DNA from: Eledone cirrhosa
Taxonomy: Eukaryota
NCBI GenBank assembly: GCA_964016885.1
Contig: OZ024742.1
Location: forward strand, 280,674,001-280,738,000
Reading direction: 5' to 3'
Length of the DNA: 64,000 nucleotides
The notes under the pieces were generated by a model. It made no database searches and was not told the origin of the DNA. It worked only from the letters and a program-made list of their open reading frames with translations. Every line of letters begins with the position of its first letter. Position 1 is the stretch's first letter. Shown here piece after piece: positions 6,071-45,894 of this stretch. Both the position numbers and the translations under genes were made by a program.

Positions 6071-6372
6071 TGTGAATATAGACATAGAATATTCGAAAAT
6101 ATTCTGTATGTTTATAATAAACATTTTGAAGACCTAATCGCTATAGAATAGAATACGTCACGTATTACAATTAGATTCTCGATAAAAGCAAGGGAAGTAA
6201 TCTACGCGTTTCATTCTTATTAGAAATCTTCAGGACTACATATCCAGTGCTTTTATCGAGAATCTATATAGAATAGAATACGTGACGTATTCTATTCTAT
6301 AGCGATTAGGTCTTCAAAATGTTTATTATAAACATACAGAATATTTTCGAATATTCTATGTCTATATTCACA
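6071..6372. mobile_element. Foldback element in (TA)n with a hammerhead ribozyme in its loop
   Basis: ~120 bp inverted arms (tgtgaatatagacatagaatattcg...) enclose the HHR at 6197-6239. Confidence 0.8.
6197..6239 (-). ncRNA. Minimal type I hammerhead ribozyme
   Basis: Minus strand: gtagtc CTGAAGA t ttct aata agaa t GAAAC gc GTA gattac. Stems I and II pair; helix III is palindromic (acgcgt). Confidence 0.85.
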
Positions 6373-6433
6373 TATATATCGCTATTTCAGAGCATTTATT
6401 CCAATATATATATATATTAAAATAACAGATTAA

Positions 6434-6484
6434 AGTTTAAGTAAAGAATCGCTGATTTCACCCTTAACGGGATCTTCTGAAACT
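6434..6484 (-). ncRNA. Hammerhead-like motif, CAGAAGA-core family (decayed copy)
   Basis: Minus strand: agttt CAGAAGA tccc gttaa gggt GAAA tcagcgattctttac TT aaact. Homologous to 29411-29461. Confidence 0.5.
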
Positions 6485-6659
6485 AAAAAAATCAATCTGT
6501 GAACGCAAAAGTAAATATTTCGAAAAACGTTACACACTATATATATACACAGACTATATATACATACACACCCATACAGTGTCATAATGTGGTAATGCAG
6601 ATAGCCAGACATACAGACAGATATTATAAGGGCTCGACGTTATAGCTATCTCTGTATAG

Positions 6660-6775
6660 TGAGCGATTGGAGTTCCACGTACTGGCCGCCCCACAGCTCC
6701 GGCGGACAGAATGGAGAAAGCGTTTCCCCGGAGGATGGTAAGGGAAATGCGCTGGAAGAGCCTACTTTGTTTGCT
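6660..6775 (-). mobile_element. C-terminal fragment of a CRE/REL-type non-LTR retrotransposon
   Basis: Translates SKQSRLFQRISLTILRGNAFSILSAG, resembling the LFQRISxAIQRGNA C-terminus of CRE-like elements. Confidence 0.55.
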
Positions 6776-8100
6776 AGTTAGAATTAAGAGAAAAAAAACA
6801 GAAGGATGATTATTGATCCATCAGGTGCCGTTGGAGTTCAGGTGGTTCGACCTCCATTTCTGGTGGGATCTCTTTTGGGAACCTCTTTAAAACACTTCTG
6901 GTTGACTTTACGTGAGAGGATCCTATGTATTAGCTTTCTCTAATAATTAATGTGTCCTCTTATCTTAAATGGTCGTCTTTTTTTTATATCCTAAGTGAAT
7001 AATTCACCTACATTTGTAGACATGGCTGCGAATATGTTGTTGGTGTTGTTGTTTGTGATGTTGTGGTTGCAGTTGATCATGTCGCTGCTGTTTGTATTAT
7101 TGTTTAATTATTGTTGTTTATGTTATTATTGTTGTTACTGTTGTCGTCATTGTATTTGTTACTTTTGTTTTTGTGTTTTTGTTGTTATTGAAGTGGTGTT
7201 GCAGATAGTAATGTAGATGGTAGAGGAAGAGCAGTTTGTTTGGGCTCTGCTTACGATTATGGCGGTGTGGGTAGCGGCGTTCACAATTGCGGATTTAGGT
7301 AGCAGAGGAAAATGAATTTCATGTAAACTTTCTGCTGGGCACGATTAGTGGTTTTAGATTTGGTTCTTGTGCTGTTGATATTTTTGTCGTTGGTGTTGTT
7401 GGTGCTGTTGTTGGTACTGTTACGGCAATTACTGCAGATGTTGTTGTTGTTGCTGCTGCTGACAATGTTTGTAATGTTATTGGTAACAGTTGTGTCGTTA
7501 GTGGTGACGCTTTTCTTGCTTGTTTCGTGCATGACGCCGTCGGTTTTCCTAGCGGAAGAAACTTCGGTTTGTGCCATGTTCTTCTGCTAAACATTGCGGG
7601 GAGGTGAAGCATCAAAGTAAATGTATCTTTAGATCCTTGGGACAGAAGGTGGCGGACGGACAATAAATTCACTCGGAAAATGGATATGTTACCTACAGAA
7701 ATGATGAAACATTCCAAATGAGACTTTTTTTTAAAAACGGGTTAGCTTCAAAAAAAACTTACAGAGTATAAACTGTGTGGCGTACAGGCCAGAAAAACAA
7801 AAATGAAAGCAACAGCAACTACAACAATAACAACAACAATAATAATGCTTTCTTTATTAACCAAAAAGGGTTTACACACAGCAAGACATTAAGGACAATA
7901 CAGGATAATACAGGACGGTACAAATGGGCATTTCTGCGTGTAAAAGAAAAAAAAAAGGATGCAACAAAAAAAGAAACAATAACAAATTCCCCAATAGGGA
8001 GGAGATTTCCGAGGGACATTTGTGGAGAAAGCCCATTAAAAAGGCCACGGTGACTCTGACCACCAGGGCAAGTGCCCTCTCCCAGTTTTCCACCTTCAAT

Positions 8101-44311: not shown

Positions 44312-44530
44312 GGCTTCTTATATAGACACAAGGCCAGCAATTTTGGGGATGGGGAAAGTAAATTAAATCGACCCCAGTGCGTGACTGGTACTTTATTTTA
44401 TCGACACCGTAAGGGCGAAAGGCAAAGTTTACCTCAGTGGGATTTGAACTCAGACCGTAAAGGGTCGTAACTTTGTGCTGCAAAGCATGGCGTCTGACCC
44501 TCTACCAGTACTGCCAATCCACCATCCTAC
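44312..44530 (-). mobile_element. tRNA-derived SINE, same family as 11677
   Basis: Same core; TSD caatatSaaataat at 44298-44311 and 44531-44544. Confidence 0.9.
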
Positions 44531-45208
44531 CAATATGAAATAATAATACAATCTAACCTTAACGTACGAAACCGTATTTGCAGATGTTGAGTGAAGAGGA
44601 GAATAGTTGCTTGTATTCGTTTGTCATTTATATAATTTTTACCTGTACACATTTGCTATTATTTACTATACTGGTAACTGCTACTCACCCATTTGTCGAC
44701 ATGTTTTAATTATGAGTAATTTGTGCGACAACTGCCTTTTTTTTCATTTAGTTATCGCTCTCCCTCTCTTTCAGAGATGGGTTGAGGTGCATGTATATAT
44801 GAACGCGTGTGTAAAGTACTGAATATTATCCAGACATATGTCGCCATATATATTTTATCCAGCCTGATTCATCTGAGAGTATTGAATTAAAATACGACGC
44901 TGCTTCAGTCAGCAAATTTAAACAAATCCTCAACGTATTAGTTCTCTTATTATGCTACAACCACTGCGAAATCAATTAACTACTTAACCCCTTAGATTTC
45001 CCGAAGTATTATATGTAGCTATCTGTTTGCTTTTCCGGGTATTTGAGTTTGTATGACATTATGCATTTGTGTGTAATCACACACAGTGCATTTATATGAG
45101 CGGTTCCAATTGACTCTACACACATACTCTCACACACACATAAACACAAATATATATACGGATATACAATATATTAATAAATGGAAACTACATTTATAAA
45201 ACCATAAT

Positions 45209-45273
45209 TATTTTATTATATGTATTTCAAGGGCAACCAAGGCTAACTTGGTGCGCTTTCATCATATAAAATA
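45209..45273 (-). ncRNA. Hammerhead, antisense arm copy with C3A mutation
   Basis: Minus strand: tattttat ATGATGA aagcgcaccaag...cttggttgccctt GAAAT acat ATA ataaaata. Confidence 0.55.
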
Positions 45274-45570
45274 CAAAATTTGTTTCATAAATAGTGACAT
45301 AACCGTGAAAAACAACCTTGACGGTTGGAAATTCGCTGGATAGTGAAACATTTTATTAAGGGTTATTCAAAGTTCTGTGTGAATATGCAAATGAATGTCC
45401 GAAAAATTGAAAAAACAAAAAACGGTTGATTTTACAATTTTTCGGACATTCATTTGCATATTCACACAGAAATTTGAATTACCCTCAATAAAATGTTTCA
45501 CTATCCAGCGAATTTCCAACCGTCAAGGTTGTTTTCCACGGTTATGTCACTATTTATGAAACAGATTTTG

Positions 45571-45635
45571 TATTTTATCTGATGAGAGCGCACCAATTTT
45601 GCCTTGGTTGCCCTTGAAATATGTATAATAAAATA
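45571..45635 (+). ncRNA. Type I hammerhead ribozyme
   Basis: tattttat CTGATGA gagcgcaccaa ttttgcc ttggttgccctt GAAAT atgt ATA ataaaata; 8 bp stem I. Confidence 0.8.
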
Positions 45636-45894
45636 ATTATTGTTTTATAAATATAGTTTCCATTTATTAATATATTGAATATTTACACCACTACTTTGTT
45701 GAGTGCTCTGTATCAGTTATAAACTTTTAAGTTTGTTGGAATCCCAATAAATTAAATATAACTTCTGCATATACGTATACATATATATATATCCTTAATA
45801 GGATATTTCCAAAAGCGAACGAAACCCTAGGGTATAAACGTAATCGTGGTATGTGTAGATGCACTTTTTCTTCTAACTTTAATTTTATACCTAA

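What the first reader, a model, noticed from the sequence alone, without database searches (positions are those of the whole stretch)
6071..45770. Recurrent foldback architecture: a pLTR-like sequence plus an inverted partial copy, inside (TA)n
Seen: unrelated families at 6071, 15184, 24888, 26295, 29553, 41090 and 45166 (also 51851 and 62328) form long inverted repeats with the HHR in the loop or in both arms. The coding PLE at 30768 has the same inverted 5' copy. Most arms differ by scattered substitutions, which argues against read-foldback artefacts. Known: PLE insertions often carry an inverted, truncated 5' pLTR. Inference: these are miniature PLE products that resemble MITEs but are RNA-derived, and they could also be a source of dsRNA for RNA editing or small RNAs.
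Basis: partly seen in the sequence, partly recalled or inferred. Interest (0 to 1): 0.7.

Follow-up and report, generated by a model that had tools for sequence, protein, structure and literature searches.

The report
Twin-primed Penelope and retrozyme palindromes
These mirror-image insertions in TA repeats are real, shortened copies of Penelope-like jumping genes and their ribozyme-bearing passengers; the layout is already described, but a short extra 'tail' sits on exactly one arm in 95 of 98 insertions, which suggests each was likely copied from one RNA starting from both cut DNA strands.

Summary
The foldbacks are real: all ten named sites are head-to-head inverted repeats, and no mirror runs into the outer flanks. 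They are 3' ends (pLTRs) of coding Penelope-like elements (PLEs; Hydra-type and Neptune/Nematis-type) and units of tandem hammerhead retrozymes, not MITEs: inner junctions vary between copies and the outer ends are unequal. The layout (inverted truncated copy, tail at one end) is published (PMC3846280, PMC8557442). What the copies add: a family-specific 33-125-nt tail lies on exactly one arm in 95 of 98 resolved insertions; paired arms share haplotypes; and in 8 of 34 copies of one family the arms do not overlap, which the published self-priming idea cannot produce directly. Best reading (inferred): the PLE enzyme primes both cut strands at its two known start sites (PMC11167929) on one RNA, and the two cDNAs join head-to-head. 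Corrections: some families are related; 51851 and 62328 lack a hammerhead; 15184 and 24888 have degenerate cores. No read bridges a junction; dsRNA and editing remain untested. This scan reached a similar reading before on other DNA, including elsewhere in this genome.

The parts
6071..6405 (.). Head-to-head insertion of a 310-bp-unit hammerhead retrozyme: tail-less arm 6071-6262 (sense on -, HHR core 6233), short arm about 6248-6372 (+) with about 33-nt tail to 6405
15186..15426 (.). Head-to-head mini-insertion: tail-less long arm about 15186-15290 (-), short arm to 15365 (+), tail about 15366-15426; family has a CTGACGA...GAAA core, degenerate in this copy; parent element not identified
24889..25108 (.). 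Head-to-head insertion: tail about 24889-24950, sense arm on - to 25074 with family-wide degenerate core (25060), short tail-less arm 25070-25108
26294..26693 (.). Near-perfect palindrome of a Hydra-type PLE pLTR: arms 26294-26449 and 26450-26606, HHR cores 26393(-) and 26507(+), 87-nt tail 26607-26693 on the right arm only
29553..30354 (.). Head-to-head insertion of an about 480-bp-unit retrozyme: arms 29553-29799 and 30032-30302 (internal TA tracts), HHR core 29892(-) in the loop, tail about 30303-30354
30668..30874 (-). Inverted 5' pLTR copy of the coding PLE, with its about 100-nt tail (30668-30767) and HHR core 30854
30874..34671 (+). 5'-truncated Hydra-type PLE: broken ORF 30874-32357 (end of RT, then GIY-YIG with CxCX5C, CxxC and CxH motifs), long 3' region, pLTR with HHR core 34584, no tail
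41090..41566 (.). Head-to-head pLTR ends of a Neptune/Nematis-type PLE: tail 41090-41142, sense arm on - with HHR core 41370 in the loop, tail-less arm 41400-41566
45162..45770 (.). Palindrome of a Hydra-type PLE pLTR: arms 45162-45420 and 45421-45682, HHR core 45579(+), 88-nt tail 45683-45770 on the right arm only
51808..52045 (.). Short head-to-head copy of the 41090 family, tail on the left, no HHR; loop 51922-51984 matched none of the fetched loci
62331..62483 (.). Short head-to-head copy related to 24888, tail on the right, no HHR
52776..53899 (.). Further head-to-head insertion of an about 524-bp tandem hammerhead repeat (cores 53022-, 53776+), extra sequence on the left end only; family not searched genome-wide
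36340..37680 (.). Related tandem repeat (about 528-bp unit) inserted head-to-head, extra sequence on the right end; family not searched genome-wide
60527..61460 (.). Further head-to-head tandem hammerhead-repeat insertion (core 60769-), tail on the right
1848..2030 (.). Further short head-to-head element with HHR core 1909(-) in the loop and extra sequence on the right

Best explanation
These are head-to-head insertions of Penelope-like element 3' ends and hammerhead retrozyme units, likely made by twin priming: the PLE enzyme would nick both strands of a (TA)n target and start two cDNAs on one RNA, one at each of the two start sites that bound the tail. Shown here: two fixed outer ends per family, a tail on exactly one arm, variable inner junctions, arms of one haplotype, some arms that do not overlap. 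Inferred: the proximal cDNA runs ahead toward the RNA 5' end; the distal cDNA must displace it and often stalls inside the tail; the two cDNA 3' ends anneal through a few bases (often at short palindromes) or a small templated insert, and each serves as template for the other's second strand. Each palindrome is then a product of one insertion event, not a unit that is copied whole. Hammerhead cleavage is probably not needed.
For: One-tail rule, among insertions with both outer ends resolved: family 26295 34 of 35 (P=1e-9 if each arm chose at 0.5), 45162 7 of 7, 41090 10 of 10, 6071 9 of 9, 15184 25 of 25, 24888 7 of 7, 30768 3 of 5: 95 of 98; 44 of 47 for the three families searched essentially without tail in the query. 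Non-overlapping arms: in 8 of 34 copies of 26295 the tailed arm stops inside the tail (+11 to +63); tailed arms stop short of -60 in 9 copies, tail-less arms in 1. The extra 5' stretch lies on the tail-less arm in 21, on the tailed arm in 3, tie in 10, so neither arm is always a copy of the other. One template: in 15 of 15 retrozyme loci where both arms cover the diagnostic sites they carry the same one of 6 haplotypes, including locus-private variants in L067 and L085; paired arms are closer than shuffled pairs in 4 of 4 families (p 5e-5, 0.010, 0.016, 0.017). Junctions: 17 of 34 overlap by 1-7 nt, 2 blunt, 12 have 1-8 extra nt, 3 have 37-96 nt (BLAST ends, so approximate). The same junction recurs with the tail on opposite arms (L057, L062) or on different haplotypes (L081/L083, L089/L090), i.e. 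independent events. Biochemistry: anole PLE protein nicks and extends both strands, starts RT at two sites that bound the tail, is predicted to be a dimer and does not need HHR cleavage (PMC11167929).
Against: All steps are inferred from finished insertions. Exceptions: both arms tailed in L049 and L197, neither in L186/L187. Searches returned only the best 27-40 candidates of up to 4152, and queries for 6071, 15184, 24888 and 41090 contained junction or tail, which biases which arm is tailed and favours palindromes. Counts for five families were read by eye from printed loci. Arm similarity could also come from gene conversion, assembly polishing or two RNAs from one source locus; in the older families the own partner was the closest arm in only 3 of 10 and 3 of 24 pairs. 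Non-overlapping arms could in principle arise by later deletion within a palindrome. L229 shares the window's 24888 junction exactly, which a copied-as-a-unit palindrome would also give. Many insertions show no adjacent inverted arm (13 of 50 in 26295; most in 45162 within 1.5 kb).
Confidence: 0.62

Rival explanations
1. Dual priming: the two cut strands are each primed on a separate RNA molecule (as proposed for L1, PMC2837659), held by an asymmetric enzyme dimer that uses the distal site on one and the proximal site on the other.
For: Gives the same head-to-head layout, allows overlapping arms without strand displacement (26 of 34 copies of 26295 overlap) and explains both-tail or no-tail exceptions (L049, L197, L186/L187). 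Shared haplotypes would follow if one source locus dominates in a cell.
Against: Needs an extra rule for the 95 of 98 one-tail result; does not explain why tailed arms stall in or next to the tail (9 vs 1); 15 of 15 haplotype-concordant retrozyme loci among 6 haplotypes.
Confidence: 0.18
2. Self-priming / foldback: one cDNA, or an antisense RNA as proposed in PMC3846280, folds back and copies itself; staggered endonuclease cuts leave the tail on one strand.
For: Junctions cluster at short palindromes; arms share haplotype; a staggered cut would also give one tail; published hypothesis (passages).
Against: Predicts overlapping arms and the loop always on the same kind of arm; found 8 non-overlapping of 34, and the loop on either kind (21 vs 3 in 26295; 18 vs 7 in 15184). 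Single-arm copies end at the same 5' site as palindromes (L047, L052, L056), so that site is not just a fold-back centre.
Confidence: 0.1
3. MITE-like DNA elements: the palindromes are excised and copied as units with fixed terminal inverted repeats.
For: Outer ends are fixed and abut TA; L228 and L229 share one junction; a few other junctions recur.
Against: Ends are unequal (tail on one side), inner junctions vary, arm lengths run from about 25 nt to over 1.5 kb and continue into RT/GIY-YIG coding sequence or tandem arrays.
Confidence: 0.03
4. Long-read foldback or assembly artefact.
For: Palindromes in (TA)n are hard to sequence; homopolymer differences occur between arms.
Against: Mirrors stop at element ends in 12 of 12 window elements; one arm holds a tail that the other lacks; arms differ by substitutions; some arms do not overlap.
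Confidence: 0.02

Closest known systems
Endonuclease-positive PLE insertions with inverted pLTR and one-sided tail (Pen2a_Av, PMC3846280; Fig. 2 of PMC8557442)
   Same: Head-to-head inverted 5'-truncated copy, tail on one end, HHR in the pLTR, (TA)n targets.
   Different: Tails here are 33-125 nt against 30-40 nt; many insertions are pLTR-only; some arms do not overlap; those papers (passages read) invoke self-priming or endonuclease resolution, not twin priming.
Hydra clade PLEs (PMC8557442, section 11 read)
   Same: C-terminal GIY-YIG with CxCX5C linker, CxxC and CxH motifs, canonical HHR, (TA)n insertion: the 30768 element and the parents of 26295 and 45162.
   Different: No RT phylogeny run; RWK and DKT motifs lie in parts not examined; the 30768 copy has a long non-coding 3' region.
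Neptune / Nematis PLEs
   Same: [quoted passage not shown]
   Different: Clade not resolved between the two; no tree built.
Animal non-LTR retrozymes (PMC7229834; bioRxiv 10.64898/2026.07.22.740005)
   Same: Non-coding tandem units of 300-530 bp, each with a type I hammerhead motif (6071, 29553, 52776, 60527).
   Different: Neither main text describes inverted arrays or tails (term counts); here 18 of 21 loci of the 310-bp family are two arrays diverging from one inversion, with the PLE tail rule. Circular RNA and cleavage not tested.
L1 twin priming and dual priming (PMC2837659)
   Same: Two cDNAs primed from the two target strands give two inverted fragments; the non-overlapping copies match the inversion-with-deletion form.
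   Different: In L1 the second site is a chance internal annealing site and arms do not overlap; here both sites are fixed and most arms overlap.
Anole Poseidon PLE in vitro (PMC11167929)
   Same: Two RT start sites bounding the tail, both strands nicked and extended, AT-rich target.
   Different: Different clade; that paper does not link this to inverted copies (its single use of 'inverted' concerns a blocked oligonucleotide).

Membership tests
EN+ Penelope-like elements | PLE-type RT plus GIY-YIG endonuclease in the parent element | tested here: met
   30768 ORF (weak Pfam GIY-YIG, E 0.0065, below cut-off; motifs); copies of 45162, 26295 and 41090 lead into such ORFs. No parent found for 6071, 15184, 29553.
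EN+ Penelope-like elements | Inverted 5'-truncated copy at the 5' end, variable truncation | tested here: met
EN+ Penelope-like elements | Optional tail at one end | tested here: met
   95 of 98 resolved insertions
EN+ Penelope-like elements | Hammerhead motif in the pLTR | tested here: inconclusive
   Core motif and stems in 6 of the 10 named elements; degenerate in 2, absent in 2; folding not better than shuffles
Hydra clade | CxCX5C linker, CxxC and CxH motifs, no CCHH | tested here: met
   CNCRRSSNC, CDLC, CQH in the 31401-32357 ORF; CNCRIKNKC, CNLC, CLH in L040; definition
Hydra clade | RT phylogeny, RWK and DKT motifs | not tested
   Window copy is truncated near RT motif C; no tree built
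Non-LTR retrozymes | Non-coding head-to-tail tandem units each with a type I HHR | tested here: met
   310-bp unit, about 480-bp unit
Non-LTR retrozymes | Self-cleavage and circular RNA | not testable with these tools
   Needs RNA data or an assay
MITE | Symmetric TIRs with fixed internal structure | tested here: not met
   Unequal ends and variable junctions
MITE | Constant target-site duplication | tested here: inconclusive
   Flanks are (TA)n, so a duplication cannot be read
L1-type twin priming (works like) | Two inverted fragments of one RNA joined at their 5' ends | tested here: inconclusive
   Layout and shared haplotype fit; one RNA versus two is not proven

The most novel reading that the evidence does not exclude
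Programmed twin priming on one RNA is the normal insertion route of endonuclease-positive PLEs across clades and of the retrozymes they carry: two RTs start at the two tail-bounding sites on opposite target strands, chase each other along the template (round a circular RNA in retrozymes, giving two diverging arrays of one haplotype), and the two cDNAs supply each other's second strand.
Probability: 0.5. Interest if true: 0.75.

Novelty: new member of a known kind. Interest (0 to 1): 0.52.

Why it matters
How PLEs make their tandem/inverted structures and their second strand is called an open question in PMC8557442 and PMC11167929. This genome holds several young, high-copy families whose ends give a quantitative rule and a direct prediction for the existing in vitro system. 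It also ties animal retrozyme arrays to PLE insertion chemistry, and warns that such palindromes in (TA)n could be annotated as MITEs or microRNA-like hairpins. The elements themselves are ordinary members of known classes.

Tried and rejected
Read support: no RNA holder listed, so expression, small RNAs and editing were not examined. Short-read contigs and RAD reads did not bridge a window junction: one identical contig runs 44481-45190, only 29 nt into the 45162 element; 15300-15319 had no cover, and one contig of another locus joined a long arm to tail letters with only 21 nt on the short side. All inconclusive. Rfam gave only microsatellite-driven microRNA matches in the 150 rows listed. 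RNA folding of 8 hammerhead candidates was not better than shuffles. A>G excess as a trace of edited templates: none. First search for 6071 found nothing; a longer query worked. Pooled arm-concordance totals were dropped for 41090 and 45162 because they paired neighbouring unrelated insertions; one search replaced them. The automatic 'both tails' call for L212 was a match to a neighbouring element. The pile of 5' ends at -155 in 26295 is caused by the query start and was ignored. Target-site duplications could not be read in (TA)n. Literature searches for a PLE twin-priming model found none; the library lacks most subscription papers (e.g. [quoted passage not shown]
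Full report
Setting. The window lies on contig C3 of a 3.0-Gb genome; the organism was not identified. About 10.7 kb of 64 kb was masked as dinucleotide repeat.

Observation. Self-comparison finds inverted repeats at all ten named sites and similar ones at 1848, 36340, 52776 and 60527. All are head-to-head: hammerhead sense points away from the centre. In 12 of 12 elements tested the mirror does not continue into the outer 600 bp, unlike a folded-back read. Hammerhead cores with plausible stems are present in 6071, 26295, 29553, 30768, 41090 and 45162, degenerate in 15184 and 24888, absent in 51851 and 62328. 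Folding statistics do not support or refute them. Some families are related.

What the families are. I searched the genome with eight families and received the best-scoring loci with 1.5-kb flanks (27-40 candidates scored of 27-4152). Copies of 45162 and 26295 run upstream for more than 1.5 kb into a GIY-YIG ORF with the CxCX5C linker that defines Hydra-clade PLEs (PMC8557442 section 11); the window's coding element 30668-34671 has the same motifs. Copies of 41090 lead into a PLE RT and a CX4CxxC-GIY-YIG endonuclease of Neptune/Nematis type. 6071 and 29553 are single units of 310-bp and about 480-bp head-to-tail hammerhead repeats, the layout of animal non-LTR retrozymes (PMC7229834, passages; bioRxiv 10.64898/2026.07.22.740005, first fifth and passages). 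No parent was identified for 15184.

Two ends, one tail. Each family has two fixed 3' ends separated by a tail of about 33 (6071), 53 (41090), 65 (15184, 24888), 87-88 (26295, 45162) or 100 nt (30768). Among insertions with both outer ends resolved, exactly one arm has the tail in 34 of 35 for 26295 (54 distinct loci, 4 not classifiable, 13 without adjacent inverted arm, 2 with unresolved end), 7 of 7 for 45162 (28 entries; five local, two wider pairs L006/L012 and L007/L024), 10 of 10 for 41090 (30 loci), 9 of 9 for 6071 (21 distinct loci, 18 with an inversion), 25 of 25 for 15184, 7 of 7 for 24888 (20 loci) and 3 of 5 for 30768 (25 loci). Total 95 of 98. Four queries contained tail or junction; for the other three families the count is 44 of 47, and the mid-arm query for 26295 gave 12 of 12. 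Loci of 29553 and 60527 were inspected but not tallied. Exceptions: L049 and L197 (both tails), L186/L187 (neither).

Inner junctions. They differ between copies, with overlaps of 1-7 nt in 17 of 34, blunt in 2, 1-8 extra nt in 12 and 37-96 nt in 3 (the long inserts are element-derived in L034, L035, L055). Recurrent junctions occur with the tail on opposite arms (L057, L062) or on different haplotypes (L081/L083, L089/L090), so they are hot spots, not descent; L228/L229 cannot be told apart in this way. In 26295, 36 of 87 arms end at -172 to -166, including single-arm copies, while 9 run further; 24888 shows a similar pile. I infer a short transcript starting in the pLTR; untested.

One template. 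In the 310-bp retrozyme, 15 of 15 loci whose two arms cover the diagnostic sites have one haplotype on both sides, out of 6 among those loci, including private variants in all covering units of L067 and L085; scattered single-unit differences remain. In four dispersed families paired arms are closer than shuffled pairs (p 5e-5, 0.010, 0.016, 0.017), though the effect is small in older families. Gene conversion or one dominant source locus could contribute.

Against simple foldback. In 8 of 34 copies of 26295 the tailed arm is only a piece of tail and shares nothing with the other arm; tailed arms stop short in 9 copies, tail-less in 1; the extra 5' stretch is on the tail-less arm in 21, the tailed arm in 3. 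In the window's 6071 element each arm holds sequence the other lacks. A self-copying hairpin, the idea in PMC3846280 (passages), does not give these directly; later deletion would have to stop at the -168 site in L043, L044 and L130.

Mechanism. Shown: geometry and counts above. From literature: the anole PLE protein nicks and extends both strands, starts at two sites bounding the tail, is predicted to be a dimer and needs no hammerhead cleavage (PMC11167929, first half of the text read); twin and dual priming are defined for L1 (PMC2837659, passages). Inferred: both target strands are primed on one RNA at opposite start sites, the distal cDNA trails and often stalls at the proximal one, and the two cDNAs anneal by microhomology and template each other's second strand (0.62). 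Dual priming on two RNAs (0.18) and foldback (0.10) remain. The young 24888 family (98-99% identity) with a degenerate core fits cleavage being dispensable.

What is known. The inverted truncated copy, one-sided tail and (TA)n bias are published (PMC3846280; PMC8557442, passages and section 11). Eight searches found no PLE twin-priming model, within a library that lacks most subscription papers; supplements were not read. Earlier unchecked notes of this scan reach a similar reading in other genomes and elsewhere in this one; my reading was written down before that look-up, and the notes are not independent proof.

Limits. No read bridged a window junction, and the dsRNA or editing idea was not testable here; DNA copies show no A>G excess. 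Samples are top hits, not random draws.

Verdict. Real, ordinary in kind (new members of PLE and retrozyme families with a published layout), moderately interesting because the copy set turns an open mechanistic question into a specific test. Interest 0.52.

Noticed in passing
family 26295 loci and family 24888 loci L235-L246: 5' ends pile at one site near the pLTR start, also in single-arm copies; possibly a transcription start that lets solo pLTRs act as SINE-like templates.
   Followed up: partly
window 24889-25108 and L229-L247: A young family (98-99% identity) whose hammerhead core is degenerate in all 20 copies shown.
   Followed up: partly
window 18768-19336 / 20540-21129 and 45787-46784: Older 71% inverted pair around a 1.2-kb spacer, related to a repeat at 45787-46784 and to a high-copy repeat in reads; a weak CTGATGA...GAAA motif at 18989. 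Class not determined.
   Followed up: no
window 4317-4402, 36197-36300, 63860-63993: Short hairpins without hammerhead; the first two matched none of the fetched loci, the third is a common repeat.
   Followed up: partly
window 51922-51984: 63-nt loop of the 51808 element matches no fetched locus; possibly captured filler DNA.
   Followed up: partly
window 14923-15156 and 26742-27130: Further truncated, diverged relatives of the 29553 retrozyme family.
   Followed up: no
window about 8100-13100 and 16087-17814; 50077-51337, 62847-63783, 40327-40665: Fragments of non-LTR retrotransposons with RVT_1 matches; the 11992-13095 ORFs look like an ORF1 region.
   Followed up: no
L031 2585-3670: Fragments resembling a hAT-type transposase (resemblance recalled, not tested) between the two arms of a 45162-family insertion.
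   Followed up: no
window 34671-36074: 1.4-kb degenerate (TA)n tract directly after the coding PLE; many insertions are nested in one another's TA tracts.
   Followed up: no
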